64,000 bases of DNA from Patescibacteria group bacterium. GTDB taxonomy: Bacteria; Patescibacteriota; Patescibacteriia; Patescibacteriales; JBAZCA01. The stretch is taken from NCBI GenBank assembly GCA_041671125.1, contig JBAZCA010000001.1:200120-264119 (forward strand), given 5' to 3'. The notes under the pieces were generated by a model, which had not been told where the DNA came from, ran no database searches, and was given only the letters and a program-made list of their open reading frames with translations. A program made the translations under genes and the position numbers. Shown here piece after piece: positions 1 to 14,800 of this stretch (the first letter of the stretch is position 1; every line of letters starts with the position of its first letter).

Positions 1-1
1 T

Positions 2-775
2 AAGTTTAAAAATAATATCTTGTATTTGTCTAAGCTCGCTTTTATTATATTCGGCCCTGCTAGTGCTATTTTTAATTTCCCGAAATAATTTTTCTAATCT
101 TTTTTCAAGTCCTTCTTTTTCAAAAGCATCTTTAAAATTCCCCATTATTTCATCAATTCCCTGAAAATAGGCTGATAATGAAGGTATTAGAATTCCCAGA
201 AAATATTCAGATATTGTTTTATTAGAATGCCAATACAAGGCTATGCCAGCGCTGAAAATTAGAATTAGCAAAACGACAATTGCCAGTGCGAAAGATCTTC
301 GTTGTCGTGAGTCCCAAACTAAATTAGACCTTTGGCAAAAAAGTATATCCAAGGGATAAGTCAAATCTTTTAAATCACCATACCAATTTTCTAAACATTT
401 TCTATCAGCTTTATATCTCCTTTCGGCAGAGGTAATTTTTTCCGGCCAACAGCTTTCCTTTGCGAGAATAAAATTCCAAGGCAAATTATAGACCGAGGTG
501 TCAAATTCTTCCTGAATCAAAGCTGCACTTTTTTTCTTATCGTTTTCAATAGATTTAATAACAAAGGCGAAAATTGACCATAAACACCCTATTATGGCTA
601 AGGGAATTATTAATTTTGTAGTAAAAAAGAAGATTAGCGGAGAAATTATTGTTAGTAATGTTGTTCCTAAAATTCTAATATTCCGGATCTTTTTAGCTTC
701 GCTATAAAGTTGCCGTTGTGCCGTAAGAAGTTTTAAATTTTGTGGTAAGTTTTGCTGAATTTTTATATTGCTCAT
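2..775 (-). CDS. CBASS-type four-TM membrane effector (S-4TM-like). Partial: the C-terminus lies beyond the left window edge. Absent from the supplied ORF track.
   Basis: Own translation of the minus strand from the ATG at 775-773 gives MSNIKIQQNLPQNLKLLTAQRQLYSEAKKIRNIRILGTTLLTIISPLIFFFTTKLIIPLAIIGCLWSIFAFVIKSIENDKKK... There are 258 sense codons and no stop before position 2, so the ORF is not closed in the window. Two hydrophobic helix pairs sit at about aa 34-72 and aa 166-211, followed by a charged helical tail. The ATG lies 6 nt after the stop of the upstream nucleotidyltransferase gene (TAA-AGAGCT-ATG). Confidence 0.6.
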   Translation of the reverse strand, partial: MSNIKIQQNLPQNLKLLTAQRQLYSEAKKIRNIRILGTTLLTIISPLIFFFTTKLIIPLAIIGCLWSIFAFVIKSIENDKKKSAALIQEEFDTSVYNLPWNFILAKESCWPEKITSAERRYKADRKCLENWYGDLKDLTYPLDILFCQRSNLVWDSRQRRSFALAIVVLLILIFSAGIALYWHSNKTISEYFLGILIPSLSAYFQGIDEIMGNFKDAFEKEGLEKRLEKLFREIKNSTSRAEYNKSELRQIQDIIFKL

Positions 776-781
776 AGCTCT

Positions 782-1663
782 TTAGTAATAATAAGAAGGG
801 AATTTATAATCAAAGACGAGATCCCACCAATCAAACGCATCTTCTGTATCGCCATCATCTTCAGCGTCAACAGCTTTCTCGGCTCTTGTAAATGCTCTCT
901 CAAGTTTTGATAATGCGTCTTTTTTTCTTTCCTCACTCGTACAAGATTCAATATATCCCGAAATGCCTATTGGGTCGACCATCGAGGCTAATTCACACTC
1001 TAACATTTCTTCAAATACATATTTAATATCGATTGGGTAAAGAATTGATGACTCTTTTGATGCATATTTGGCAACTCTCATTTCAATATAAAAGGAGGAT
1101 ATCGGCACTTTCTTATAGTATTTCCAAGCTTTTATAAATCTTATTAAAGGCTTAACCTTTAAAAATAATTCTCTCTTTAAATTTATTTTCTTAACATATT
1201 CATTATGTGCAGTTGGCCCAGCTCTCATCCACCCTCCTCCCGGAGAAGGAATGTCATAAATACTAAAGCCATTTTCACTTTTTATATAATCAGCGGGAAT
1301 TACTTCCGTTGTTTCTGAAGCATGATTTCCGAAAGGAATTACAACCGCAGGGCTATTCACATGTATACCCTTAGTGTTTGGAAATCTGTTTTCTAAAGCC
1401 TCTTTTATTTTTTTTAAACTATATGCTGAATTTTTATGCAAATTATTCGTCGGTATGCTCGCGAAATAATCGACGTCACTATATCCATATATGCTCGTTC
1501 CATGACCAATGGATCCAGTTCTAAAAAAATTTTTGAGTCCAAAATTTGTTTCAAGACATCTTTTAATTGATTCCCTATGACTCGCTAACAGTTCCGATTC
1601 AGTTTTAATTAATTTTAATTTTTTATGAAACTCATCGAATCCCTCGACAATTGTTCTAGGCAT
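782..1663 (-). CDS. SMODS / cGAS-DncV-like nucleotidyltransferase (CD-NTase-like cyclase of a type I CBASS-like cassette)
   Basis: 293-aa ORF. It carries the Pol-beta-type signature ..RTGSIGHGTSIYGYSDVDYF.. (G-S ... D-x-D) and a later acidic strand ..TEVIPADY.. The C-terminal helical part ..LIRFIKAWKYYKKVPISSFYIEM.. is typical of SMODS proteins. A 4-TM protein gene follows directly. Confidence 0.7.
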   Translation of the reverse strand: MPRTIVEGFDEFHKKLKLIKTESELLASHRESIKRCLETNFGLKNFFRTGSIGHGTSIYGYSDVDYFASIPTNNLHKNSAYSLKKIKEALENRFPNTKGIHVNSPAVVIPFGNHASETTEVIPADYIKSENGFSIYDIPSPGGGWMRAGPTAHNEYVKKINLKRELFLKVKPLIRFIKAWKYYKKVPISSFYIEMRVAKYASKESSILYPIDIKYVFEEMLECELASMVDPIGISGYIESCTSEERKKDALSKLERAFTRAEKAVDAEDDGDTEDAFDWWDLVFDYKFPSYYY

Positions 1664-1692
1664 AGATTTTAAACTGACTTTATTACACCGTC

Positions 1693-1721
1693 ATTTTCCC
1701 ACTAATATATTGATAAGTCAA
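1693..1721 (-). promoter_or_regulatory. Candidate sigma-70 promoter for the CD-NTase cassette
   Basis: The minus strand reads TTGACT, a 17-nt spacer, then GAAAAT. It sits about 30 nt upstream of the ATG at 1663. The -10 element is weak. Confidence 0.3.
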
Positions 1722-1746
1722 CAAAAATAAGGCCTTTTAGCCTTAT
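1722..1746 (-). terminator. Rho-independent terminator-like hairpin downstream of the MBL gene fragment
   Basis: The minus strand reads ATAAGGC-TAAAAG-GCCTTAT, a 7-bp stem, followed by TTTTTG. Confidence 0.5.
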
Positions 1747-1816
1747 TACATAGTTAATATAAAAAATTCTTATTTAATCTTCTCCACTATTTCAAACCTA
1801 ATTGGTATAACATTGT

Positions 1817-2107
1817 TCATAACACATGGTCATCGTGAGGGTGCGATAAAATCATCAAATCAATTTGCTTGTCCCAAGGCGGCATGACATCCGACAATCG
1901 CTCAACCAACCGGGAGTTAGGTCCCCCGTCTATTAAGATATTCTGCCCGTCCGGGGCTTTAATAAGTATCGCGTCTCCCTGGCCGACATCTAAAAAGTCC
2001 GCTTCCAGCTTTTTCGGCGGATGGTAAAAAATCCCGAACAAAAAAACCGCCCCCAAGATCGCCGCGGCGCCGGAAAAAATTATTAGCAATTTTACTCTAT
2101 GGCTCAT
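1817..2107 (-). pseudogene. Truncated ComEC/Rec2-type metallo-beta-lactamase domain gene (N-terminal 96 aa only)
   Basis: A signal-anchor helix is followed by ..FLDVGQGDAILIKAPDGQNILIDGG.. and ..ILSHPHDDH.. The ORF stops two codons after the HxHxDH motif, whereas an MBL fold needs more than 200 aa. The stop coincides with an abrupt switch to AT-rich sequence. Confidence 0.6.
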
Positions 2108-2176: not shown

Positions 2177-5100
2177 CTATTTTATCTCTATATTTTTCCG
2201 AAGTTCCACATTCTTTTTGAGTTCCACCGGCGAAACGTCCATTGTTGTGCTGAACATTATCCAGCCGCCGTATCCGGTGCCAGCAGAATTGGTCGCGTAT
2301 GACCGGATGTAATAGGTCGTGTCGTGAGTGAATCCGGCCAAAGGCAAGGAAAAGACTCCTGTTGAAAACGACCCTGTTTCGTGCGTCTCCCAAGTACCGG
2401 TTTCGGTAAGCCCGTATTCAAAACCGCGCGCAATAACGGTTGATCCGCCAATACTGGTAATATCGGCATTGGCTGACGCGCCAGTGTCGGTTATGGAAGA
2501 AACGGCGCTGGTGGTTATATCCGGTGTCGGGTCTCTATAACCTCTGTCCGCAGTTGAAGTTTGGCTGACTGAACCGGTAGCGCTTAATATGCAGTGAAAA
2601 TACCGCCCGCTCCCGTCAGTCGGCGCGCCGGTGTCGTTGTAGGGATTAGTGATTCCTCCGCTGATATCGGAATAAGAGGCGTCTGAATCGTCGGCGGATC
2701 TTTGCCACTGGTAAGTAAGGCTTTGCGCTCCCCGATAACCCGTATCCGTGAGACTGTCGGGACTGTCGCCGGACGCGTTAAAAGCGACAACTTTATAAAC
2801 ATGAGTTGTCCCGTTGGCCGCGCTTTCGCCGGAAAGAGACAGCGCGACATATTCCTTATTCGTTCCGTCTGTGGCGCCGGCCGTTCCAGGCGTAATCACC
2901 GGGGGATCAGCGCCACTGTCATTGTATGTCGCGACGTCACCCAGGTCGCCGGAGACGCTAACATCATCCCGATAGACCCTGTAACCGGTGGCACCGGTGG
3001 ATTTAGTCCAGGTAACAACAACTTTTTCGCCGTAAGTCTCGTCAGTAGCCGCTACGTCAGATGGTTGGTCAGGAGGAAGGAGATAGTCTATACTTACCTC
3101 GGAAAGATACGGACTGACATTGGTGTCGGTTGCGGAAACAATGGCGCGATATTGGATGTAGCGGCTGTCCGTGCTGATGATGTTGGAAGTCGCCGCCGGA
3201 TCAGTAAGATAATTGGAAACCGATTCAAAATCATCCAGATATATATTTCTTCCTCCCAAGCCGTCGGTAAGGCGAAGAGTGAGATTTGTGGAAGCGTTGA
3301 TTTGATCATCCATTGCGCCGGTCAAATCCCAATATTCCCTTTGCCATTTGAAGACGGTGGCGTTCACCGTAAACCCGCCAGCAGGAAAAGTGGAACCGGC
3401 GTCCCAAGCGGATATTGTCACTGCGCCAGTGGAAGCGGCAACGGCCGTTGTTGTCCCTTGGGCGATATATTCCGTACCATTATAGTTTTCTTTGACGATG
3501 ACTTTATCACCGGTGTAGAGGTTGTCGCCTTTGTTGGTAGCGCCGTATGTTTGGGAATTGACAGTAAAGGATAAATCGTTGGTGTCAGCAATCAGATTGC
3601 CGGAGTCCAGCGACGCGGCAAAATCAATGGTGATAGGATGAGTGCGGCGACCGACTTCATAGGCTTGGCGGATTTCGGCGGCGGTACGGGCGGTATTGGA
3701 AATTCGAACTTCATCAATCAAACCGTTAAAAGCATCATTGGCATTTTGATCACCGAATATATAGGTATAGCCAGAAGGGGTATTAGGAACGCTAGCCGAT
3801 CCTGAGTAAAAAAGTGCTCCGTTAAGATAGCCGTACAACGTTCCGTTATCTCTTTTCATTACTATATGATTCCAACTGTTTGAACTTAGAGCTATATTTG
3901 TATCAACATCAATGACTCCCCCATATAAAAAGTGGATCTGGTGAGAATCACTGGAGTTCAAGTATATTCCCCAGCCCGAAGTTCCCGAATTGCCATTATA
4001 AACTAAATATTGACCATATCCCGTGCTGCTGCCGCTCCAATTAACCCATGTATCAATAGTAAAATTATTAGTTGCGGTGGTAACCACAGATCCCGTTGTG
4101 ATTTTATTTGTAGTAGCAGTATAATTTCTTGCTTTTCCAATTTTACCTTGGCTAAATGTCGTTCCAGTCGGCGTGCCATTATTTCCACTGCTTGAAGAAT
4201 CTTTGATATACGCTCCGGATCCGGATTGTTCTTCCAAATGCCAAAGTCCGACTGTATTGGCGTCCGGTTCATAATTGGCAAAAGCCGATTCACCGACTGT
4301 AGTTTCAAGATAGGTTCCCGGGCGATCGGCGGCAATATAGAACGGCAGTTTGGACGCGGAAGATAAATCAGTGGAAGAAATCGTCCGACTTAACCGATGA
4401 TCGCGTCCAGCGCGATAGGCTTCAGCGATTTCTTCGGCGGTGCGGGCTGTGTTAGAAAGTTTGATTTCGTCCATAGACCCATGAAAAAAACTTCCTCCGG
4501 CATTATCTTTACCTATAAGAAGAGAAGTGCTAATACCTCCGTTAGTCCAGGCTTTTGTTACAGAATTCTCCAGTGCTCCATCGATATAAATTTTAAGAGC
4601 CGTGCTGTCATATTGGCCAACAACAAGATGCCACTTGCCATCCGCAATGTTAGTAGTTCCTACCACCGATGCTTCAACACTGGAAGAATATATATAGACT
4701 GCCGCTTTTCCGGTTGTTTGCTCAACATAAGTTATAAAACCTTGAGCCGCGCTGCCTCGGTTATCCAAAATCGCCTGGTTACCTGCGGTATATGTTGTTT
4801 TTATCCACGTTGATGCTGAAAAATTTCCTGCGCCTATTGCCGGAATAGTAGCAGAAATGTAATCACTCGTTCCGTTAAAACTCCTTGCCTTCCCGGCAAA
4901 TCCGTCCGTAACCGTTGTTCCGGCTCCCCCCGCTATTCCATTACGCCCGTTCCCCGAAGAATCATAAGCGGTCGAACCGACCCCGACATTGGTTTCATCC
5001 AGATGCCAAAGGCCGACGGTATTGGCATCCGTTTGCGGCGCGCCTACAGAAGTCTGTAATGATCCTGTTCCCTCCTGCTTGGCCTGCGATTGTAATTTTT

Positions 5101-8100
5101 TAGTATAAGCAACCGGAGTAGTGATGCCAGAAAGGGAAGAAGAATAATTAACCGCGATGCGGCCGGATCCTCCAGCTCCCCCGTTATATCCCGATGCGAT
5201 TGTTCCTCCGGAACCGCCACTGGCAGTAACTGAACCGGAAATACCAACCGAGTTTCCGTCCAGGCGAATTGTGCCTCCACTGCCTCCTCCTGAACCCCCC
5301 GAGTACCTGGCACCGGAAACATAACAATAAAGCCCAGCTAAACCATTGTCTCCATTATTGGCAATAGATCCCGCCACGCTTATGGCATTACCGCTAATAT
5401 AAGCTATTCCTCCTCCATCGCCCTCGCCGCTAGCGCCCGAACGGCCGCAACTCCACCCGTCTCCGCCGCCGCCTCCGCCGGAGCCCAAAAAAATATTTGA
5501 TAGTTCGCTTGATCCTAACGTTCCGCCGCCTCCGCCGCCACCGGCATTAGTGCTATTGCCGTTTCCGCCAGATCCGCTTGCATAACTTCCAGAGCCGCCG
5601 TTATTTATTCCATAACCGCCTCCGCCGCCAGTTCCATAGCCTCCGCCTCCGCCGCCGCTTCCATAATTTCCAGCATAACCGCCTCCGCCACCCGCGCCTC
5701 CTAACGCGCTTCCGCTCCCTCCTGTTGAATTCACAGCGCTTCCTCCGCCAATCCCTCCCCCTCCTCCGCCTGAACCTCCGGAGGCATACCAATTGCCATT
5801 ACCGGCAGCTCCGCCAAAACTATTTCCTCCATAAGCCATTCCCGTTGATCCTGCCGTAAATCCTTTTCCTGTAACACTGACCGCTCCGCCGCTATTCACT
5901 GTTACCGTTCCATTAGATCTGAAAAACAACACTCCATTTTTCGTTCCGTTCCAGGCCGTAATAGTGAGAGTGGCCGCCGCGCTGCAACCTCCGCCTGTAT
6001 TTCCTCCGCAAACAGTAACATTTCCAAAATTTGGCACTCTTTGTACCATAATTTTTTGAGTGGTTCCGTCATAAGTATTTTTGAGAGGATAGTCGGTGAA
6101 GTTCAAATCATTAGTAGAAATAGAAGAGATAATATGAGTCTCATATTGGCCGACGGAGTTGTAGTTAGTGCTTGTTCCTTGGAGATTAATAATGAGGATT
6201 TCGTCACCCGCGGCGAGTCCAGTTGGGGTAGCGGAAACCGTGACTGATGTCTCTCCCGTTTTTTCCAAAGTGGTGTCGGAAAAATTTACCGCGTAGGCCG
6301 TAGCTCTGGCACTGCTATTGCAAACAGCTGAACCGGCGTCAGAATCCAATGTTTTGGTGCCGTTATCAATGATGCAATCCCCGTCATCGCCAGTACCAAT
6401 GTTTATTCCGCCGACTTTACTGATGGTTGAGTCTGAATTCATATAAGAATCAACCTGCCAGGCAGTTGATTCCGTATCCATTGACGCAATCTGTGTCTCC
6501 GTTCCTGCGCCTGCCGGTTTCCAGGCTTCCCAGTTATAGTCGTCAGTGGGAATGATATAATCAAGGGTAACGTCATCCAAAACCGGAGTGTCTGTACTAT
6601 CGCCGCCAAAAGCAATTTTATAATAGAAATTGGCGCTAGCGGTCCAGCCGGACAACGTGATGGTATTGTTTACCCCCGTAGTCAGTGTTTCCGAACCGGA
6701 ACCCTTGTCTTTGTTGTACCAATTAGTCCCGTCCTGGCTAAATTGGATCGTGGCGGTTGTACTGCCGGGCTTGGCGGAAAGATTATAGACAAATGAGGTA
6801 ATGGAATTCACACTGCTCACGCCCGTCAACAGGTTAGTAGAAATAACTGTGCCGGACGTTTGATAACCCACCAAGTCTCCCTGAGCGGTATATGCCGTGG
6901 GACTCGTTGTGCCGGAAGGTGCAGAGTTATAATAAACAGCTATGCGACCCGAACCGCCGGCACCACCGCCGCCAGCGTTGGAACTGCCAGTGCCACCGCT
7001 CGCTGTAACCCTTGATGTATTCAAAGTAGCTGTATTTCCTTGAATCAAAATACTTCCCCCGGAAGATCCTCCTTTTCCGCCCGTACCATATGTGCTTGAA
7101 GCTTCGGCTGCATTCGCGCCATTGGCAGTAATTGATCCGGAATTATCAACTACAAGATTATTACAAAAAATTGCAATTATCCCTCCGGAACTATTATTTA
7201 CTTGTCCCGCGCCCGGACTACCAAAATATAATTGAGAAAGATTTTCTGCTCCATAGGCAACACCTCCTGCTCCGCCTCCGCCTCCGCCGCCGCCGCCAAT
7301 AGTCCAATTTCCACAAGTATCAGCGCCATTTCCTCCGACCGTACTGCCATTTACTCCATTACAATTTCCGGTATAGCTTGCCCCTCCTTTGCCTCCGCCG
7401 CCGGCTGTTCCATATCCTCCTCCTCCGCCGCCGCCGCCTCCGCCGCCGACACCTGTTTCGTCGCCAATCACGCCAGGAGCTCCGCCTGCTGCTGAACCTC
7501 CATTTCCTCCTGCTCCACCATACCAACTTCCTCCTCCGCCGCCGCCCGATCCTCCCGCCCCGCTATAGCCGATACTTCCTCCTCCGCCACCGCCGCCAAA
7601 ATAGACATTATTGCCATTATGAGAGCTACCGCCATTACCGCTTCCGGCACCTGCGCCACCGCCGGCACCGCCGCCGCCACCATTACCGCCATAGCCAATC
7701 GCCCCTAAACCTTTAGTACCTCCGCTAGAAGCTCCGTCCACTCCGTTTTGTCCAGTACCGCCATTATTGGCGCCATTGCCTCCATCTCCACCACCGGTAG
7801 TACCCCCTGTTCCCTTGACCCCAATGGGTCTGGTGGAATATTGTCCGCCTCCGCCTCCGCCTCCGCCTCCATAAGCATAAGTACCTCTGTATGTCTCACT
7901 ATTATTATAGCCAAGCGTTTCGGCGGATACTTTTCCTCCATTATTCACTGTTGCCGTCCCATTGGCATAAAAAGCCACGATTCCGGTATAAAAACCGGCG
8001 TTGCCAGTCGGCGCAGTGGCGAGAGCATCCCATCCTGAAGCCGTGATCGTTCCCCCATTTTCCACAGTCACATTGGTATATTGAGGAATGCGCTGAACAA

Positions 8101-11100
8101 CCACTTTTTGGTTGGTATAAGAATTGCCGGAACCGTCATAGTCTTTGGTCGGAGCGGAAGTTACGTAAATATTGGCGGAAGAAACCGAGGAAACCGTCAG
8201 AACTTCATAATTGCCCACGCTGCCGTAATCAGCGGATGCACCTTGAAGATCAACCAGCAAAATTTTATCGCCGGCTACGATTCCGGGAGCGTTGGTTGTC
8301 GCGGTGATGGTCGTTCCTGATATGCCGCTCACTCTATAGGCGATGCCATCGGCGTAGGCGCTGTTGTCATCGCCGTCCGCGCCCAAACTTTCAGTGTTAA
8401 GGTTTTTACTGGCGGAAACCGTCAGCGCGCCGTCCGATCCGTCGCCGACATAAACTCCGGTTTGCAGTTTTAGTTGGCCTCCGGCAACTTGATAGTTGGA
8501 AGATGAGCCAGTGTTGATTTTAGTCGTGTCGGCATAGGAATCAGCGACAGTAGCTGATTGAGAACTGGAAGCGGAAGATGCCGTTCTTGTCTGAATTTCA
8601 ATATTCCCGGCGTTGTAGTTGACAAGAATTTCTTCGGCGGAAATGGCGCGAGAATAGACGCGAACGGAGTCAATAGTACCATTAAAATACTGTGATAAAC
8701 CATTTCTAACACCAACTAAAAGATTCGTTGAAGTTACGGAGTCAATAGTACCGCCTGCCGTATTTGAATTCTTTAAAACACCGTTAAGATAAGAATAAAT
8801 AGTAGTTCCGGAATGAACAAGCGTAAAGTGATACCACTCTCCCTGATTGGTATAGCCAAAACAAACTGTTCTCCATGTTCCGCCGTCATATGTCCAGCGA
8901 GCGCCCAATATATTTGTTCCGCAATCACCCCAATAAATCTCATAATTTGACCTGTCAGGAGATGCTTGCCTTTTGGAAATTATCTGTCCGGTCGCGGCTC
9001 CTGACAATTTAAACCAACCCTCTATAGTAAAATCGTTATTTCCTAAATCAAGACTGGAATTATTGGAAAAATCCACATAATCATTTGTCCCGTCGAACAT
9101 CAAAGCTCCCGCTCCCCATCTCCGGTTGTCCGCTGTCCAACCTGTTCCGGCGGCGGCGTCGCGCGATCCGGTGGACGCGAAGCTGGTGAGCGTTCCGTCG
9201 CAATTGGCCGGCGTTCCGCCGCAAGAAGTCCCCTCCGCGTCATTGTTGGCCGCCGTGCCGGAAGCTTCATTGAAATTCCATTGCGCCACCAGGCCAGTGG
9301 AAGAAGAAAGCGTTTCCCCGTCTCCGGTTTGATTGCCGTTTTCCGTCCATTGGATGGTCTGCCAGTCAACGCCGTTTATTCCCCCGTCAATAACCGGAGA
9401 AGTATAAATTCCATAAGGGCTCCTTTGCGCGTCAGCTTTAATTTCTTCGGGAGTGCGGGCGACATTAGAAATGCGGACTTCGTCAATGACACCGTCAAAT
9501 CTGTTGGTGCTATTATACCACTCTCCGATATACAGAGTTGCGACAGACTGGGTAGACGCGGAAATAGTAATAGCCATGGATCCTTCCAAAACACCATTGA
9601 TATATAAATAAGTTTTTGACCCGTCGCTCACCCCCGCAACATGATACCATCTGCCCGCGATTATCGTCTGGGTGCTGGTAATATCGTTAGCCGCCACAGC
9701 TTGTTTAAATACGCTGAACACAACCTTGCCGTTACTGTCCAGATAAAGAGTGTAGCCAAATTCGTTGGAAACATTTTCCTGTTTGTTAATAATAATCCTT
9801 GAAGTTGTCGCATCAGCATAAAACCAGGCTTCAGCCGTGAAAGCGCTGGCTTGATTAAAATCCAAAGAAGTGCTGTGCGCCACCGTCGCGTAATCGTTCG
9901 TTCCGTCAAAAGCTCTCGCCGCCAATCCTAATCTTTGGCTGGTTGTTTCAATTGTCGTTCCGGATTCAGTCGCGTGATTTCCGTTTCCGGAACTGTCGCA
10001 AGCATCCTGTCCGGCAGAACAGGAATCATTGGCAGTTTCATTCATATGCCAGAGTCCGACCGTATTTTTGTCCGCCGGCAGTTCGTGATAGTAGCTTTCC
10101 AGCTTCGGACTGGCTCCCGATCCGGAGTCATAAATTCTGTTTTTCACGCCTGTAAATTCACTCGACTCGTCATGCACCACACTCGGATCGATCCGAATCG
10201 GAAACTTTCTGGCCGGATCGTTGAGCCACTTTTGGGAAGGCTTAATAATCACACTATATTTCTGACTATCATCGCCAGCCAAAGCCGTTTTTATCATTGA
10301 AAATTGATTTTTTAAAATTGATTGAAAATTATTTTCGCTATCCATTCCCACTTTCTCATCCTTAATTTCTTTGATCTGCATCACAATCTCATCTGATTTA
10401 TTCCCCACTGCATCAATCATTACCGGTTTCAAAAAGTGAAAAGCGTATTTTCCTGTTTTTTTATCAACAAAAGCCGGCGAATAAATTCCTTCCGCCACCT
10501 TGATTGGTTCCACGTTTTTCCCTTCCAAAGAAAATTCCCAGACCGGCCCGACAAATTTTTTCGTCTTTTTAGACGCAAAATTTTGCGTCTCCATGGCTTT
10601 TTTGTCTTTCAAAACAATTTCTTCCTTCACGCCATGATCGATAATCTCATAAGTCAGATCGGTTTGAGGCAAAACATCTTTTATTATTAATTTATCTTTG
10701 TTAAATTTGTCTTCTTTGGAATTTTGGATTTGAGATTTATTCGTTATTTGTGATTTGTCATTTGTCATTTCAGCGTCCAACGCCATAGCCAGACTGTCAC
10801 CTCCCACCGAAAAATTCACCCACGATTTGGACGGATCTTTCTTGTCCAAAAATCCCACCTGAAAATCACGATTGATATTTTGGTATTCATACTCTCCGCC
10901 CCAACTGTTTTTTGAAATATCATAGTTTATCTTCACCGACCGATTCTTGAGCCAACGCCAAGCGAACGGCGAACCGGCTATGATTGCCAAAAGAAAAACA
11001 GTCGCCCCGATGCGCTTCCAATCAAAACGCATTTTTTTTCGGTCGACAAAAAGCAGAAAGAAACGGCGGGCTAATTTATTCATTTTTAAAACTATTTTTT

Positions 11101-11116
11101 TCATAAATATCTTCAA
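2177..11116 (-). CDS. Giant membrane-anchored surface protein with four LamG (concanavalin-A-like lectin) modules, two poly-glycine modules and C-terminal FN3/Ig-like repeats
   Basis: One uninterrupted 2979-codon ORF, with TTG at 11116 and the first ATG at 11104. The N-terminal anchor helix reads ..IGATVFLLAIIAGSPFAW.. LamG hallmarks appear four times: ..TVGLWH(M/L)xE.. or ..LVAQWNFNE.. at the start, and ..IDEVRISN(V/T)ART(P/A)(E/A)EI.. or ..IDSVRVYSRAISAEEI.. at the end. The C-terminus contains ..GYRVYRDD.. and ..LTYQWQRS.. Confidence 0.85.
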   Translation of the reverse strand: MKIFMKKIVLKMNKLARRFFLLFVDRKKMRFDWKRIGATVFLLAIIAGSPFAWRWLKNRSVKINYDISKNSWGGEYEYQNINRDFQVGFLDKKDPSKSWVNFSVGGDSLAMALDAEMTNDKSQITNKSQIQNSKEDKFNKDKLIIKDVLPQTDLTYEIIDHGVKEEIVLKDKKAMETQNFASKKTKKFVGPVWEFSLEGKNVEPIKVAEGIYSPAFVDKKTGKYAFHFLKPVMIDAVGNKSDEIVMQIKEIKDEKVGMDSENNFQSILKNQFSMIKTALAGDDSQKYSVIIKPSQKWLNDPARKFPIRIDPSVVHDESSEFTGVKNRIYDSGSGASPKLESYYHELPADKNTVGLWHMNETANDSCSAGQDACDSSGNGNHATESGTTIETTSQRLGLAARAFDGTNDYATVAHSTSLDFNQASAFTAEAWFYADATTSRIIINKQENVSNEFGYTLYLDSNGKVVFSVFKQAVAANDITSTQTIIAGRWYHVAGVSDGSKTYLYINGVLEGSMAITISASTQSVATLYIGEWYNSTNRFDGVIDEVRISNVARTPEEIKADAQRSPYGIYTSPVIDGGINGVDWQTIQWTENGNQTGDGETLSSSTGLVAQWNFNEASGTAANNDAEGTSCGGTPANCDGTLTSFASTGSRDAAAGTGWTADNRRWGAGALMFDGTNDYVDFSNNSSLDLGNNDFTIEGWFKLSGAATGQIISKRQASPDRSNYEIYWGDCGTNILGARWTYDGGTWRTVCFGYTNQGEWYHFTLVHSGTTIYSYLNGVLKNSNTAGGTIDSVTSTNLLVGVRNGLSQYFNGTIDSVRVYSRAISAEEILVNYNAGNIEIQTRTASSASSSQSATVADSYADTTKINTGSSSNYQVAGGQLKLQTGVYVGDGSDGALTVSASKNLNTESLGADGDDNSAYADGIAYRVSGISGTTITATTNAPGIVAGDKILLVDLQGASADYGSVGNYEVLTVSSVSSANIYVTSAPTKDYDGSGNSYTNQKVVVQRIPQYTNVTVENGGTITASGWDALATAPTGNAGFYTGIVAFYANGTATVNNGGKVSAETLGYNNSETYRGTYAYGGGGGGGGGQYSTRPIGVKGTGGTTGGGDGGNGANNGGTGQNGVDGASSGGTKGLGAIGYGGNGGGGGAGGGAGAGSGNGGSSHNGNNVYFGGGGGGGSIGYSGAGGSGGGGGGSWYGGAGGNGGSAAGGAPGVIGDETGVGGGGGGGGGGGYGTAGGGGKGGASYTGNCNGVNGSTVGGNGADTCGNWTIGGGGGGGGGAGGVAYGAENLSQLYFGSPGAGQVNNSSGGIIAIFCNNLVVDNSGSITANGANAAEASSTYGTGGKGGSSGGSILIQGNTATLNTSRVTASGGTGSSNAGGGGAGGSGRIAVYYNSAPSGTTSPTAYTAQGDLVGYQTSGTVISTNLLTGVSSVNSITSFVYNLSAKPGSTTATIQFSQDGTNWYNKDKGSGSETLTTGVNNTITLSGWTASANFYYKIAFGGDSTDTPVLDDVTLDYIIPTDDYNWEAWKPAGAGTETQIASMDTESTAWQVDSYMNSDSTISKVGGINIGTGDDGDCIIDNGTKTLDSDAGSAVCNSSARATAYAVNFSDTTLEKTGETSVTVSATPTGLAAGDEILIINLQGTSTNYNSVGQYETHIISSISTNDLNFTDYPLKNTYDGTTQKIMVQRVPNFGNVTVCGGNTGGGCSAAATLTITAWNGTKNGVLFFRSNGTVTVNSGGAVSVTGKGFTAGSTGMAYGGNSFGGAAGNGNWYASGGSGGGGGGIGGGSAVNSTGGSGSALGGAGGGGGYAGNYGSGGGGGGYGTGGGGGYGINNGGSGSYASGSGGNGNSTNAGGGGGGGTLGSSELSNIFLGSGGGGGGDGWSCGRSGASGEGDGGGIAYISGNAISVAGSIANNGDNGLAGLYCYVSGARYSGGSGGGSGGTIRLDGNSVGISGSVTASGGSGGTIASGYNGGAGGSGRIAVNYSSSLSGITTPVAYTKKLQSQAKQEGTGSLQTSVGAPQTDANTVGLWHLDETNVGVGSTAYDSSGNGRNGIAGGAGTTVTDGFAGKARSFNGTSDYISATIPAIGAGNFSASTWIKTTYTAGNQAILDNRGSAAQGFITYVEQTTGKAAVYIYSSSVEASVVGTTNIADGKWHLVVGQYDSTALKIYIDGALENSVTKAWTNGGISTSLLIGKDNAGGSFFHGSMDEIKLSNTARTAEEIAEAYRAGRDHRLSRTISSTDLSSASKLPFYIAADRPGTYLETTVGESAFANYEPDANTVGLWHLEEQSGSGAYIKDSSSSGNNGTPTGTTFSQGKIGKARNYTATTNKITTGSVVTTATNNFTIDTWVNWSGSSTGYGQYLVYNGNSGTSGWGIYLNSSDSHQIHFLYGGVIDVDTNIALSSNSWNHIVMKRDNGTLYGYLNGALFYSGSASVPNTPSGYTYIFGDQNANDAFNGLIDEVRISNTARTAAEIRQAYEVGRRTHPITIDFAASLDSGNLIADTNDLSFTVNSQTYGATNKGDNLYTGDKVIVKENYNGTEYIAQGTTTAVAASTGAVTISAWDAGSTFPAGGFTVNATVFKWQREYWDLTGAMDDQINASTNLTLRLTDGLGGRNIYLDDFESVSNYLTDPAATSNIISTDSRYIQYRAIVSATDTNVSPYLSEVSIDYLLPPDQPSDVAATDETYGEKVVVTWTKSTGATGYRVYRDDVSVSGDLGDVATYNDSGADPPVITPGTAGATDGTNKEYVALSLSGESAANGTTHVYKVVAFNASGDSPDSLTDTGYRGAQSLTYQWQRSADDSDASYSDISGGITNPYNDTGAPTDGSGRYFHCILSATGSVSQTSTADRGYRDPTPDITTSAVSSITDTGASANADITSIGGSTVIARGFEYGLTETGTWETHETGSFSTGVFSLPLAGFTHDTTYYIRSYATNSAGTGYGGWIMFSTTMDVSPVELKKNVELRKNIEIK
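3640..4260 (-). other. LamG module 4 (approximate bounds)
   Basis: Runs from ..TVGLWHLEE.. to ..FNGLIDEVRISNTARTAAEIRQAY.. Confidence 0.7.
4390..5030 (-). other. LamG module 3 (approximate bounds)
   Basis: Runs from ..TVGLWHLDE.. to ..FHGSMDEIKLSNTARTAEEIAEAY.. Confidence 0.7.
5140..6420 (-). repeat. Intragenic module copy 2: beta-rich segment plus a poly-glycine block of about 240 aa
   Basis: ..YETHIISSIST..QKIMVQRVPNFGNVTV.. is followed by runs of G and ends ..GGAGGSGRIAVNYSS. It is collinear with copy 1. Confidence 0.7.
6925..8480 (-). repeat. Intragenic module copy 1: beta-rich segment plus a poly-glycine block of about 320 aa
   Basis: ..YEVLTVSSVSS..QKVVVQRIPQYTNVTV.. is followed by runs of G (GGGGGGGGG and similar) and ends ..GGAGGSGRIAVYYNS. 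Confidence 0.7.
8600..9300 (-). other. LamG module 2 (approximate bounds)
   Basis: Runs from ..LVAQWNFNE.. to ..FNGTIDSVRVYSRAISAEEILVNY.. Confidence 0.65.
9415..10070 (-). other. LamG module 1 (approximate bounds)
   Basis: Runs from ..TVGLWHMNE.. to ..FDGVIDEVRISNVARTPEEIKADAQ.. Confidence 0.7.
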
Positions 11117-11132
11117 TTATATATAAATAAAA

Positions 11133-11830
11133 TTACTTCGCGCACCTGAACCCGACGTCGTCCATCGCTTCGTGCGGGGCGTGCGAAAGATCCAGCGAAT
11201 AAATTCCATTTTCTCCCCGGACAAAGCCGCGGACTTTGTCCGATGACTCTCCGGTGATGATTTTGCCTATTCCATTGTCAGTGTCATTCATATAATACGG
11301 CGGACGGATGTTGCCGAGCGATTTGTAGGAAAAAACGTTTCCATATTCTTCCCAGCCGCCCGCTCCCGCCAAAGGCATATCTTCCTGGTTTACGATTCCC
11401 CTGGTCCATTCGCCCATACCGGCTAATTCATATATCATATTCCCGTTAGTCAGGATAAAGGGCGTGGAGCTGGCCGATTCGGCAAGATTCGCCGCGGTTG
11501 ACGTCGCCAGCTGTAAACCGTAAATATTCGGATCAATATCATTACCCTCTGCCCGGATAATATTATCCGCGATGGTGAGCCATTCTGAATCGCTCATTAA
11601 ATGATAGCCTTGCCCAAGGCTCTGGCATCTTATGTCCGCCTCGCCTTGGCTGATTCCTGTCCAAACCGGATAGCTGTTATCAACAATATTCGCTAAATTC
11701 GTTTCTGATCCGTTTTCATTCGCGAGTTTAACCATGACGCAGAAGCCCGGAAGCGTTCCGTATTCAGCCGAACCCGGAATCCAGGTAAATCCTTCATCGC
11801 AATAACCTTCATAAGCTCCGGCGACGACTT
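11133..11830 (-). other. C-terminal C-type-lectin-fold-like domain (FGE-sulfatase / DUF1566-like)
   Basis: ..WTGISQGEADIRCQSLGQGYHLMSDSEWLTIADNI.. with the terminal ..VGFRCAK. Confidence 0.45.
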
Positions 11831-14800
11831 TGCCTTCAACTCCTAAATCGCCTAAAGTATCATCAACTTTCTCGTCCAGCCGGGAAGAGCAGGCACCGGA
11901 AGAGCAGACTAATATCCGACCGTCAACTTCAAGCTCCCCGACGATTGCCACTTTACCTCCTGAGGTTATGTTCATAATGGAAACTTCGCCGGATTTAAAG
12001 TCAGCGACATCGCCCGAACCGATCTGATTAACGATAAAGGCGGTTTGGGCTGTCGTAGAGGCGGTTTTAATTTCCATAATCGCGACTTCGGTAGTCGTGG
12101 CGGATGTAATAATGGTCACAGTCGCGCCGCCGTCAGCTCCAAACCTGCCGTCTCGTCTGTTATCCAATATCTCCGCCGTAGAGCTCGCCAGTTCATCCAG
12201 TCTGCCGTTAACCACTAACCATTGGTCGCTAAGCAACAGCGTTTGATTATTGATAATTGAAAAATTATTGATCATTGATAATTGCGCGTCCGCCAAAGCT
12301 TTAGCGACGGCGGAAAAATTGAAAATTTCGTCCCTTAATTCATAATTCTTAATTCTTAATTCTTCTATTTTACTGGTAAGATCATCGGTGGTGACAGTTA
12401 ACTCGGTTGAAAGCATAAACAACTTCGGATCTACAATTTCCCCGATTTTTGAATCTAAATTAAGCTGTTCCACGGCCGAGGCGATTAGCCGATTAACTTC
12501 ATCTTCAATCGCCATATCCGCCACCCGGTCGGAAACCAATTTTTCCACTTCTTCAACGGCTAAGGATTTATTGCGGCGGGAAATAAGGACTTTAATCTTT
12601 CCGGTTCCTTCCAGTTTTGATTCAAGAGCTATGCCGACGGTTGAATCGCCGCCTTCGGCGCGCATGGCATAGCCGGGCGTGGATGAGGCTGAAGTCAGGG
12701 AGTCGCCAACTCTAACAGGTCCGTTTTCGGCTGAGACAAAAGCGTCAACCTGGCCGAGCATGCCGACGATAGCGTAGCCGGAAGGATTTAGGGCAATTTC
12801 TTTTGAATTATTACCAACGATTGAAGGCTGGGTTGATACTATGCCCATAACGTTGTTATCCGCCCCCCGATCGCACCTCTTTACGCCGTTCTCCCTCGTT
12901 ATGTCAATACAAACTACTTCGCCTGATTTTAAATCCGAATCCGCTGTTTTAAAATACTCAGCGTAGTCGGCGCCGGTAGCGTATGCCCCGACCGCGTAAA
13001 CCGTTCCGGCCACTGTTGCCCCGGTGCAGGTATCATTATTGTCAACGCATAAATATCCATTGGCGATTTTGACGTTTTTTCCGGAAGCGGCTGAACCGAT
13101 ATGCAAACCGGCGGAAGGACTCGTCGTCCCGATGCCGATGTTGCCACTCTTATCAATCAGCAAACGAGTTGTCCCTGCTGCTATCGGGTCGCCCGCTAAA
13201 GCATTACTCGTTTTTATTGCAAAATCTCCATAAGCAGTAGAATTAGCGCCAATAAACCAATTTCTGCTATCTACTTGTGAAAAGGTTGTGTCTAATCTAA
13301 TACCAGAAGAGGTGTCTGCTCCAGTAAATCTAGCCGAGGGGACACCCGTAGCTGTACTGATAACATCAATTTTATATCCCGGACTCGTCGTCCCGATCCC
13401 CACATTCCCACTGCTCCCTTCTACAAACAGTTTGTCATTGAGGTTGATGTCCACGTCCGTGCCGTCACCCAGTTTGACATAGTCTTGCGCTCCTTTGTAG
13501 AGATCAAGAAGATATTTGCCGCCGATGTAACCGCGGAAGCGGTTATCGTCAAAACTAAGAGTTGTGTCAGTGTCGTCGTTGTGGTGGATGAATTGATTGA
13601 TGCCCAGGTCTCCATTAACATCCAACTCGTAGTCGGGATTGGTCGTCCCGATGCCCAGATAGCCGGAGTTAAGGACAGTGATTTTTTCCGCTCCGGCGCC
13701 GTCAAAGAGGTTAAAAATCGGATTGGTTCCGTCGCCTTTGACTGAGAGCCTGGCGGTCGGGGAAGTCGTCCCGATGCCGACGTTGCCGCTGGAATCAATC
13801 CGCAGTCTTTCCAGTCCGTTGGTGGAAAAATTGAGCGTATCCGCGCCGCTGGACCAGAGGCCGGTATTCAGGTCAGACCGGAAGGCGAGGCCGGGGTCGG
13901 CGGCCGAGCCGGAGCCGAAGGCAATCTTGCCGTTGACGTCAAGAAGCGCCAGCGGGATGGCGGTGTTAACGCCGACATTGCCTCCGGCGTAGTTGATGCC
14001 GCCAGTAGCTTGCGCCCAATAGCCGGCGCTGCTGCCGCTTCCATTGAGAGAGACGGCGATTCTGGCGGTAACCGTGTCGGCGCTGTTATTATAAAAGCGC
14101 ACCGTATTGGAATCCTGAATCCGAAGCTGGTATTGGGATTGTTCATACGTCACAGTGATGCCGTTCACCGCTGGAGTGAGGCCGGTGGTGGTTTCCATTC
14201 CCACGGCAAAATCCAGGGTTTCAGTGGAACCGACGGCGTAGCCTCCGGAAGATTCCTGCTGGGCGTCGGTGAGGGCGTTCATTTCCGTGCCGGTCATTTG
14301 ATTGGCGGTAACTTGCATAGCTTGATCCAACGCTCCGGCTTGGGTGTTGGTAGTAGCGGCTGTCCAAGTAACGCTCGTTAGTCCGGTGGCCGTGTTGGCG
14401 TTGTATTGCCAGGTGCCGGAGTTGTTTCGGGCAATCGGACGCCAGCCGGCGTTTCCGTCGGTGTTGTCATATATTTTCCAGGTGGAACGGTCATCATATG
14501 AAACGGCGTAATGGATGGTTTCTCCATTGGTGGTTTCGGTGACGGCGATGGAGTTGATATTGGTCCAGTAGGAGGAATCCAGTTGGTTGGTGTCGGTGGT
14601 GGTGGTGATGTAGAGGGAGTCGATGGGAGAAAAAATGCTTTCAAATACATGGATGTTAAGCCCATAATTGCCATTTCCCACATTGACATAGGCAAGCTTG
14701 TTGTTGGGAAAATAGGTTATTGCCAGCGAACCAAGGGTAGTGCTATAGACAGCGCCGAGATCGATAGGATTTTTTGCATCAATAGTTATGTTCGTGCCGC

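What the first reader, a model, noticed from the sequence alone, without database searches (positions are those of the whole stretch)
1..1816. AT-rich CBASS-like cassette (CD-NTase plus 4-TM effector) at the window edge; the effector is invisible in the ORF track
Seen in sequence:
- A 293-aa ORF carries the G-S...D-x-D nucleotidyltransferase signature and a SMODS-like C-terminal half.
- Six nt later a second ORF begins (775 down to 2, open to the window edge). It encodes two pairs of TM helices.
- The segment is much more AT-rich than the rest of the window. For example, only 18 of the first 60 nt are G or C.

Established knowledge: a CD-NTase plus a 2TM/4TM protein is the minimal type I CBASS anti-phage architecture.

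Inference: this is a horizontally acquired abortive-infection cassette in a small-genome host, a lineage in which few defence systems have been described.
Basis: partly seen in the sequence, partly recalled or inferred. Interest (0 to 1): 0.7.

Follow-up and report, generated by a model that had tools for sequence, protein, structure and literature searches.

The report
CBASS defence cassette on integrated element
The AT-rich window edge holds an ordinary two-gene CBASS anti-phage system (signal-making cyclase plus membrane effector), carried as cargo on a 7.6-kb mobile element that has split a competence-type nuclease gene of a tiny-genome (Patescibacteria) bacterium.

Summary
The observation and the interpretation both hold. 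Window 782-1663(-) encodes a 293-aa CD-NTase. It matches a PADLOC cyclase model at 3.7e-117 and Pfam SMODS at 5e-12. G50-S51 and D63-x-D65 are invariant, and D125 is kept in at least 90% of relatives. The predicted fold is closest to P. aeruginosa CdnD. Six nt downstream, window 775-2(-) is the first 258 of 290 codons of an S-4TM effector (Pfam 5.7e-68). No Cap2/3 or HORMA/TRIP13 genes are present, so this is a type I CBASS.

The window is identical to a public 87-kb contig, which supplies the missing part. The cassette is the integrase-distal cargo of a 7.6-kb element. That element also carries a DnaD-like loader, an excisionase-like HTH protein and a large serine integrase, and it has 19-nt terminal inverted repeats. 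It sits inside a ComEC-C-terminal-like MBL gene. Joining the two gene halves at a shared CATGT restores an intact 286-aa ORF, and the closest relatives have the intact gene.

The host is a Patescibacteria MAG. RefSeq already names this two-gene architecture, and a CdnD-4TM operon has been shown to defend E. coli. It is therefore a new member of a known kind. The unusual part is an intact spare copy of the disrupted MBL gene placed directly after the effector.

The parts
2..775 (-). S-4TM CBASS effector gene: first 258 of 290 codons, with the 3' end cut by the window edge. The full gene is L001 10889-11761.
   Evidence: Pfam S_4TM 5.7e-68, and 6.2e-80 for the full 290 aa. PADLOC '4TM' effector models down to 4.1e-52. 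Hydropathy and a 5-sequence alignment support the TM segments.
782..1663 (-). CD-NTase (CBASS oligonucleotide cyclase), 293 aa. G50-S51 and D63-x-D65 are invariant in the family alignment; D125 is kept in at least 90%.
   Evidence: PADLOC PDLC00776 3.7e-117 over 1-292. Pfam SMODS 5.4e-12. PDB profile hit to PaCdnD 4.4e-28. AF2 pLDDT 88.3, and all top 50 Foldseek hits are CD-NTases or cGAS. Conserved residues.
1693..1721 (-). Promoter-like site TTGACT-17-GAAAAT with an extended TG, 30 nt upstream of the cyclase ATG.
   Evidence: Consensus scan, L001 9943-9971. This is a consensus match only; function is inferred.
1726..1747 (-). Terminator-like hairpin (9-bp stem, U-run) between the truncated host gene and the CBASS promoter.
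   Evidence: L001 9917-9938. RNA fold -12.5 kcal/mol, z -3.4, and 0 of 200 shuffles fold as well.
1806..1824 (.). Left terminal inverted-repeat arm of the integrative element. Its partner lies outside the window at L001 17458-17476.
   Evidence: Top-ranked inverted pair in the region: 19 nt, 89% complementary.
1824..1828 (.). Shared core ACATG (CATGT on the gene strand) at the element/host junction (attL side).
   Evidence: CATGT is present at both junctions (L001 9836-9840 and 17479-17483). Joining there restores a 286-aa ORF.
1817..2107 (-). 5' fragment (96 codons) of the host's ComEC-C-terminal-like MBL gene, truncated by the insertion just after the HPHDDH motif.
   Evidence: Pfam Lactamase_B 4.8e-6 and TIGR00361 ComEC_Rec2 1.2e-8. 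The 3' fragment is at L001 17479-18060. Intact orthologues occur in relatives.

Best explanation
This is a type I CBASS anti-phage system made of a clade-D-like CD-NTase and an S-4TM membrane effector. It is expressed from its own promoter as the integrase-distal cargo of a roughly 7.6-kb integrative element driven by a large serine recombinase.

The element has inserted site-specifically into a ComEC-C-terminal-like MBL nuclease gene of a Patescibacteria bacterium. The insertion point is the CATGT that follows the HPHDDH-coding sequence.

The inferred working, by analogy with characterised CBASS, is as follows. Phage infection activates the cyclase. The cyclase makes a cyclic oligonucleotide whose identity is unknown. 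The signal activates the four-TM effector, which damages the membrane and kills or arrests the cell before phage are released.

Shown here: family membership of both proteins, conserved catalytic residues, the operon layout, the element borders, the split target gene and the empty site in relatives. Inferred: the trigger, the signal chemistry, membrane disruption and the defence phenotype.
For: Cyclase:
- PADLOC cyclase 3.7e-117 over the full length and SMODS above the Pfam cut-off.
- G50, S51, D63 and D65 are invariant and D125 is kept in at least 90% of 32 relatives.
- D63/D65 align with PaCdnD D62/D64.
- AF2 pLDDT is 88.3, and the best structural match is PaCdnD at TM 0.74.

Effector:
- S_4TM 6.2e-80 for the full protein, with four hydrophobic segments.

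Architecture:
- The spacer between the two genes is 6 nt.
- All seven closest relatives examined have the same cyclase + S_4TM pair.
- RefSeq annotates the same pair on Nostoc plasmid pNLP4 as 'CBASS oligonucleotide cyclase' and 'S-4TM family putative pore-forming effector'.
- No Cap2/3, HORMA or TRIP13 domain is found in any element ORF.
- An EcCdnD12-4TM operon gives at least 10,000-fold protection against phages of five families (bioRxiv 10.1101/2023.05.21.541620).

Mobile element:
- The window is identical to contig k141_224736 over 11,663 nt.
- The element encodes a Resolvase + Recombinase + Zn_ribbon integrase, an HTH_17 excisionase-like protein and a DnaD-like loader.
- It has 19-nt terminal inverted repeats.
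- The in-frame join of the two MBL halves gives a 286-aa ORF.
- All 13 relatives found have an intact MBL gene, and 7 of them keep the same downstream response-regulator gene (6 keep NDK).
- The closest orthologue locus, L035, is collinear across the junction.
- A 60%-identical integrase sits at the same codon of the MBL gene in another genome.

Composition:
- GC is 0.326 against 0.473, and CBASS GC3 is 0.26.
Against: - No functional data exist for this system or for any Patescibacteria CBASS.
- The nucleotide product and how S-4TM senses it are unknown.
- NCBIfam CBASS_cyclase_b scores 115 bits, below its 200-bit equivalog cut-off. The protein is therefore outside NCBI's curated equivalog even though it matches PADLOC strongly.
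- TM4 is only weakly hydrophobic.
- The promoter and terminator are consensus matches only.
- Clade D assignment rests on the nearest solved structure, not on a clade tree.
- Whether the element is still mobile is untested.
Confidence: 0.88

Rival explanations
1. A three-gene CBASS variant. In this reading the MBL-fold gene that starts at the base after the effector's stop codon (L001 11762-12619, outside the window) is a functional part of the system. It could be a second nuclease effector or an enzyme that degrades the signal.
For: - The S-4TM and MBL' genes have zero intergenic distance and the same strand.
- ComEC-type MBL domains are used in defence systems: MBL' matches PADLOC LmuA 1.8e-28, a DRT-associated MBL 7.4e-22 and Avs1a.
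- A faint Anti-Pycsar_Apyc1 Pfam hit is recorded on the orthologue P0242.
Against: - None of the seven closest cyclase + S_4TM loci has an MBL gene after the effector.
- MBL' is 77.9% identical to the host gene that the element interrupts. It is closer to that gene than to the best non-self hits of the 5.8-billion-protein search (P0242 72.6% and P0246 69.3% by global alignment).
- That host gene is a conserved chromosomal gene. The same downstream response-regulator gene is kept in 7 of 13 Patescibacteria relatives, and NDK in 6.
- GC3 of MBL' (0.40) differs from the CBASS genes (0.26).
- Its N-terminal basic stretch plus a single TM suggests that the catalytic domain is outside the cytoplasm. 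This last point is inference.
Confidence: 0.06
2. The cassette is an inactive relic, carried passively by the element and no longer providing defence.
For: No expression or activity data exist. CPR genomes are streamlined, and MAG contigs cannot show selection directly.
Against: - Both ORFs are full length against their profiles: cyclase 1-292 of a 287-position model, effector 3-285 of 291.
- All family-invariant catalytic residues are kept.
- There are no frameshifts or internal stops.
- The cassette has its own promoter-like and terminator-like signals.
Confidence: 0.05
3. Assembly chimera: the AT-rich segment was joined to the Patescibacteria contig by mis-assembly, and it belongs to another organism.
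For: There is a sharp GC step at the junction, and the source is metagenomic.
Against: - The same junction occurs with 0 mismatches in an ENA MEGAHIT-style contig and in a Logan contig from run SRR6484324.
- The same protein is recorded on a 275-kb contig in NCBI/JGI.
- The two host gene halves flank the segment and rejoin in frame at a shared CATGT.
- The ends are inverted repeats next to a serine integrase.
- A related integrase occupies the homologous codon elsewhere.
Confidence: 0.01

Closest known systems
Type I CBASS with a clade D CD-NTase and a 4TM effector (for example E. coli EcCdnD12-4TM; bioRxiv 10.1101/2023.05.21.541620)
   Same: Two-gene operon with no accessory Cap2/3 or HORMA/TRIP13 genes. 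The cyclase is nearest to CdnD-type enzymes among solved structures. The effector is a four-TM protein.
   Different: I could not obtain the EcCdnD12 or its 4TM sequence, so direct identity is unmeasured. The host here is a Patescibacteria MAG, and function is untested.
P. aeruginosa ATCC27853 CdnD (PDB 6P82, 6P8U, 6P8J)
   Same: Full-length sequence and fold match (profile E 4.4e-28; Foldseek 1.1e-13, TM 0.74, 22% identity). The GS and DxD residues align.
   Different: From my own knowledge (Ye et al. 2020), PaCdnD works in a type III operon with HORMA, TRIP13 and NucC and makes cAAA. Here there are no HORMA or TRIP13 genes and the effector is a membrane protein. The product cannot be inferred at 22% identity.
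RefSeq-annotated pair 'CBASS oligonucleotide cyclase' + 'S-4TM family putative pore-forming effector' on Nostoc plasmid pNLP4 (NZ_CP026696.1)
   Same: Same gene order and same 6-nt spacer. Both sit on a mobile replicon beside other defence genes.
   Different: The cyclase is only 28% identical. The carrier is a plasmid rather than an integrated serine-integrase element.
Gene-splitting elements with large serine recombinases (for example Listeria comK prophage, B. subtilis SPbeta or skin) and comM-targeting islands (own knowledge)
   Same: Resolvase + Recombinase + Zn-ribbon integrase lies at one end. The att arms are imperfect inverted repeats. Insertion is inside a protein-coding gene. The nearest integrase relatives split a YifB/ComM gene or the same MBL gene.
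   Different: The element is only 7.6 kb with no virion or conjugation genes. It carries an intact copy of the gene it disrupts, which none of the six related element loci examined does.

Membership tests
CD-NTase / SMODS (CBASS cyclase) | Significant match to family profiles over the whole protein | tested here: met
   Pfam PF18144 scores 46.7 bits against a cut-off of 26.5. PADLOC PDLC00776 is 3.7e-117 over 1-292. NCBIfam CBASS_cyclase_b is 4e-33 but falls below its 200-bit equivalog cut-off.
CD-NTase / SMODS (CBASS cyclase) | Pol-beta-type active site: G-S motif plus the D-x-D and third Asp triad | tested here: met
   G50, S51, D63 and D65 are invariant and D125 is kept in at least 90% of 32 relatives. 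D63/D65 align to PaCdnD D62/D64.
CD-NTase / SMODS (CBASS cyclase) | cGAS/DncV-like fold | tested here: met
   AF2 pLDDT 88.3 and pTM 0.83. The top 50 Foldseek PDB hits are all CD-NTases or cGAS.
CD-NTase / SMODS (CBASS cyclase) | Synthesis of a cyclic oligonucleotide | not testable with these tools
   Needs purified enzyme with labelled NTPs, or LC-MS.
CD-NTase clade D | Placement within clade D in a tree with the reference CD-NTase set | not tested
   Only proxy evidence is available. The best solved relative is PaCdnD at 4.4e-28, and the next solved CD-NTases are at 2e-6 or weaker.
S-4TM effector (PF18159) | Full-length profile match | tested here: met
   6.2e-80 over residues 3-285, matching profile positions 2-288 of 291.
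S-4TM effector (PF18159) | Four transmembrane helices in two hairpins | tested here: met
   KD peaks are 1.93, 2.66 and 3.00 for TM1-3. TM4 is below the 1.6 threshold but stays hydrophobic in the alignment. No dedicated topology predictor was available.
S-4TM effector (PF18159) | Signal-dependent membrane disruption | not testable with these tools
   Needs toxicity and membrane-integrity assays.
Type I CBASS | Cyclase and effector adjacent on the same strand | tested here: met
   6-nt spacer. The same pair is found in the seven closest loci.
Type I CBASS | No Cap2/Cap3 (type II), HORMA/TRIP13 (type III) or type IV accessory genes | tested here: met
   Pfam, PHROGs and PADLOC scans of the other element ORFs found none.
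Type I CBASS | Protection against phage | not testable with these tools
   Needs heterologous expression and phage challenge.
Large-serine-recombinase integrative element | Integrase with Resolvase, Recombinase and Zn-ribbon domains and the catalytic Ser motif | tested here: met
   Pfam 1e-25, 1.2e-19 and 3.4e-13. phrog_95 integrase 6e-103. The N-terminal YARVST motif is present.
Large-serine-recombinase integrative element | Defined ends flanking a split target, with an intact empty site in relatives | tested here: met
   Searches give the ends and the in-frame rejoin. Searches give the intact orthologues and collinearity across the junction.
Large-serine-recombinase integrative element | Excision or integration activity | not testable with these tools
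   Needs junction-spanning reads (attP/attB) or a recombination assay.

The most novel reading that the evidence does not exclude
The element belongs to a Patescibacteria-specific clade of serine-integrase elements that home into competence-type genes: a ComEC-C-terminal-like MBL nuclease gene or YifB/ComM. This member has solved the cost of that habit by carrying an intact spare copy of its target. The spare copy is 78% identical to the host protein, keeps all MBL motifs, and has a diverged att core (GACCACGTTAGCGG against GACCATGTTACCGG). It lies just inside the left end, where it could originally have been read from the host gene's promoter. A foreign, AT-rich CBASS cassette with its own terminator and promoter was later wedged in front of it. 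If this is right, it is a self-compensating, defence-carrying mobile element in bacteria thought to depend on DNA uptake.
Probability: 0.3. Interest if true: 0.55.

Novelty: new member of a known kind. Interest (0 to 1): 0.33.

Why it matters
The CBASS system itself adds little. Both proteins are recognised by existing defence-finder models, RefSeq already names this architecture, and CPR defensomes have been surveyed.

What the case does offer is a cleanly delimited example of how a streamlined, probably episymbiotic bacterium acquires an abortive-infection system: as cargo on a 7.6-kb serine-integrase element with base-pair-resolved ends and a demonstrable empty site.

The related elements point to competence-type genes (a ComEC-like nuclease and ComM) as preferred landing sites in Patescibacteria. 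The spare target copy is a testable hint of cost compensation.

The compact integrase/att pair could also serve as a genetic tool for a group that has almost none.

Tried and rejected
- Relatives of the integrase in the JGI metagenome contig collection were only 30-36% identical and were uninformative. The protein database search was the one that found the 46-60% clade.
- IMG/VR scans with the integrase and with the cyclase alignment found nothing related. I found no support for a phage origin.
- I considered a model of two elements in tandem, in which the full MBL gene would be a restored hybrid. I rejected it. The MBL' sequence at the homologous site does not carry the element's P' arm (GTTATGAACAATGTT). 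The only terminal inverted repeat pair lies at L001 9840-9858 and 17458-17476.
- The serine recombinases next to CBASS relatives in L025 and L026 are only 19-22% identical to this one. The association is analogous, not the same element family.
- Literature searches for S-4TM mechanism and for Patescibacteria serine-integrase elements returned nothing specific.
- No structure prediction of the effector was attempted. I had no admissible homologues left to build an alignment, and a single-sequence model would have been unreliable.
- A formal CD-NTase clade tree was not possible without reference sequences.
Full report
**Observation**

The minus strand of window 782-1663 holds a 293-aa ORF. Six nucleotides after its stop codon a second minus-strand ORF starts at 775. 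It runs without a stop to position 2, giving 258 codons. The ORF lister omits it only because it runs off the window edge.

Window 1-1823 has GC 0.326. The 604 other windows of the same length have GC 0.473 +/- 0.032, with a minimum of 0.409. The description is therefore accurate.

**The two proteins**

The 293-aa protein:
- It matches Pfam SMODS (5.4e-12, above the cut-off) and a PADLOC CBASS cyclase model over its entire length (3.7e-117).
- NCBIfam's CBASS_cyclase_b equivalog is hit at 4e-33, below its strict cut-off.
- Against solved structures the only strong relative is P. aeruginosa CdnD. The single-sequence E-value is 5.6e-13. A 32-sequence family profile gives 4.4e-28. Other CD-NTases score 2e-6 or weaker.
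- In that alignment G50-S51 and D63-V-D65 fall on the CdnD catalytic positions. The deposited D62N/D64N mutant reads N-I-N in the same columns.
- G50, S51, D63 and D65 are invariant, and D125 is kept in at least 90% of the 32 relatives aligned.
- An AlphaFold model (pLDDT 88.3) retrieves only CD-NTases and cGAS among its 50 best PDB matches. PaCdnD is first, at TM 0.74.

The downstream protein:
- It matches Pfam S_4TM at 5.7e-68 for the part in the window and 6.2e-80 for the complete 290 aa.
- It has three strongly hydrophobic segments (33-51, 55-73, 162-180) and a fourth, weaker one (about 191-207).
- All four segments are conserved in relatives. So are polar motifs in the two soluble regions: IQEEFD, CQRSN..WD.R and LR.IQD.

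**System type**

No ORF nearby carries Cap2/Cap3, HORMA, TRIP13 or other accessory domains. The seven closest cyclase loci all show the same cyclase + S_4TM pair. This is a type I CBASS.

RefSeq annotates the same pair, with the same 6-nt spacer, on a Nostoc plasmid. The names there are 'CBASS oligonucleotide cyclase' and 'S-4TM family putative pore-forming effector'. A CdnD12-4TM type I operon from E. coli has been shown to restrict phages of five families by at least 10,000-fold (bioRxiv 10.1101/2023.05.21.541620).

The working model is phage-triggered cyclase, then cyclic oligonucleotide, then effector activation, then membrane damage. It is inferred from those systems and is not shown here.

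**Beyond the window edge**

The exact cyclase sequence is on record on an 87-kb ENA contig. That contig is identical to the window over all 11,663 overlapping bases. A Logan contig from SRR6484324 is identical as well. I read the contig as locus L001, in reverse orientation, so that window x equals L001 11664-x.

After the effector come, in order:
- a complete MBL-fold gene of 285 aa, which starts at the base after the effector's stop codon
- a zinc-ribbon membrane protein
- small ORFs
- a DnaD-like helicase loader (phrog_2514, 8.7e-23)
- an HTH_17 excisionase-like protein
- a 559-aa large serine recombinase (Resolvase + Recombinase + Zn-ribbon; phrog_95, 6e-103)

**A split host gene defines the element**

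The 96-codon ORF just right of the AT-rich segment (window 1817-2107) is the 5' part of an MBL gene and ends just after the HPHDDH motif. A matching 3' part begins at L001 17479, overlapping the end of the integrase gene. Both junctions carry CATGT. Joining them there yields an uninterrupted 286-aa ORF.

The sequences just inside the junctions form the best inverted repeat of the region: 19 nt, 89% complementary, at L001 9840-9858 and 17458-17476. The element is therefore about 7.64 kb, and its left border in the window lies at 1824-1828.

Evidence for the empty site:
- All 13 relatives of the reconstructed gene found in reference genomes are intact. Seven of them have the same downstream response-regulator gene as here, and six have the same NDK gene.
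- The closest orthologue (80.8% identical protein) lies on a contig whose DNA aligns without a break across the junction and on into the response-regulator gene.
- A 60%-identical integrase in another genome sits immediately upstream of an MBL 3' fragment that begins at the same H-V codon and the same CATGT.

Assembly chimerism is thus very unlikely.

**Host**

NCBI labels the exact cyclase and MBL proteins as 'Patescibacteria group bacterium'. Nearly all named relatives of the MBL gene and of the integrase come from Patescibacteria lineages: Parcubacteria, Falkowbacteria, Magasanikbacteria and Gribaldobacteria. One MBL locus is instead labelled 'uncultured Gammaproteobacteria'. The finer classification was not resolved.

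**Composition**

Three layers can be distinguished by GC3:
- host genes: 0.48-0.57
- element backbone and its MBL copy: 0.40-0.45
- the two CBASS genes: 0.26

The cassette therefore looks foreign even to its carrier. Between the left end and the cyclase start lie a terminator-like hairpin (-12.5 kcal/mol, z -3.4) and then a TTGACT-17-GAAAAT promoter-like site. This arrangement fits an insulated, self-driven cargo module, but these are consensus matches only.

**The wider element family**

Integrases 46-60% identical to this one form a clade whose source-named members are Patescibacteria. Of six further element loci examined (seven integrases were looked up, and two of them gave overlapping copies of one locus):
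- one splits the same MBL gene
- five split a YifB/ComM-family gene (TIGR00368, 2e-91 for the N-terminal half and 6.8e-84 for the C-terminal half)

The MBL protein matches the C-terminal nuclease domain of ComEC/Rec2 (TIGR00361 positions 417-663, 1.1e-40). Both targets are therefore competence-type genes.

Cargo at the integrase-distal end varies. It includes DnaB, a methylase plus an HNH protein, and HxsD plus radical-SAM genes. Only this element carries CBASS.

**The unusual feature**

This element alone carries a complete copy of its own target.
- The copy is 77.9% identical to the reconstructed host protein. It is closer to that protein than to the best non-self hits of the 5.8-billion-protein search (P0242 72.6% and P0246 69.3% by global alignment).
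- It keeps the MBL motifs.
- It differs from attB at two positions of the 14-nt core.
- It shares one 68-nt perfect run with the host 3' fragment, which may reflect gene conversion.

I read it as a compensating spare copy (inference). The alternative, that it is a third CBASS component, is disfavoured. No related CBASS locus has such a gene, and its composition and ancestry match the target gene rather than the cassette.

**Novelty and verdict**

The system is a new member of a well-known kind. It is detectable with existing models, and relatives at about 58-63% identity are common. NCBI records for some of them name Woesebacteria, Planctomycetota and Chitinophagales.

Defence systems in CPR bacteria have already been catalogued at scale. 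That survey reports a high density per Mb (PMC12259885). The claim of rarity is therefore weaker than stated.

The added value lies in the resolved mobile-element context and in the spare-target-copy observation, which deserves a systematic survey.

Noticed in passing
L001 11762-12619 (just beyond window position 1, minus strand of the window's contig): An intact 285-aa ComEC-C-terminal-like MBL gene starts at the base after the S-4TM stop codon. It is 77.9% identical to the host gene that the element disrupts, and its att core differs at two positions. It may be a compensating spare copy.
   Followed up: partly
L001 12347-12414 and 17785-17852: A 68-nt perfect match between the element's MBL copy and the host's 3' fragment, in a background of 84% identity. 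This may reflect gene conversion between the two copies.
   Followed up: partly
L029-L032, L034 and one JGI locus without DNA (related Patescibacteria contigs): Integrases 54-58% identical to this one split a YifB/ComM-family gene rather than the MBL gene. The clade seems to prefer competence-type genes as landing sites.
   Followed up: partly
L027 1-759 and 10001-11623: Two serine integrase genes lie about 10 kb apart upstream of one MBL 3' fragment. These may be tandem elements at the same att site.
   Followed up: no
window 2177-11116(-) and 11133-28088(-): Two giant ORFs (2979 and 5651 aa) lie directly beside the island. The 2979-aa product has Laminin_G_3 (LamG) hits and long glycine-rich tracts. 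The 5651-aa ORF was not scanned.
   Followed up: no
L001 18630-18974 (outside the window): A 23S_rRNA_IVP-family (PF05635) gene lies between the response regulator and NDK. The corresponding stretch is missing from the DNA alignment with the closest relative, L035.
   Followed up: no
L023 5686-9763; L026 8001-13385: CBASS relatives in other genomes sit beside an EcoRI-type methylase and a GmrSD-like gene (L023). In a Woesebacteria contig (L026) the pair lies at the distal end of another small element with a rep gene and a serine recombinase.
   Followed up: partly
cyclase versus effector across L020-L026: The cyclases are 58-62% identical to the query, while their partner S-4TM effectors are only 31-40% identical. 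The effector evolves much faster than the cyclase.
   Followed up: no
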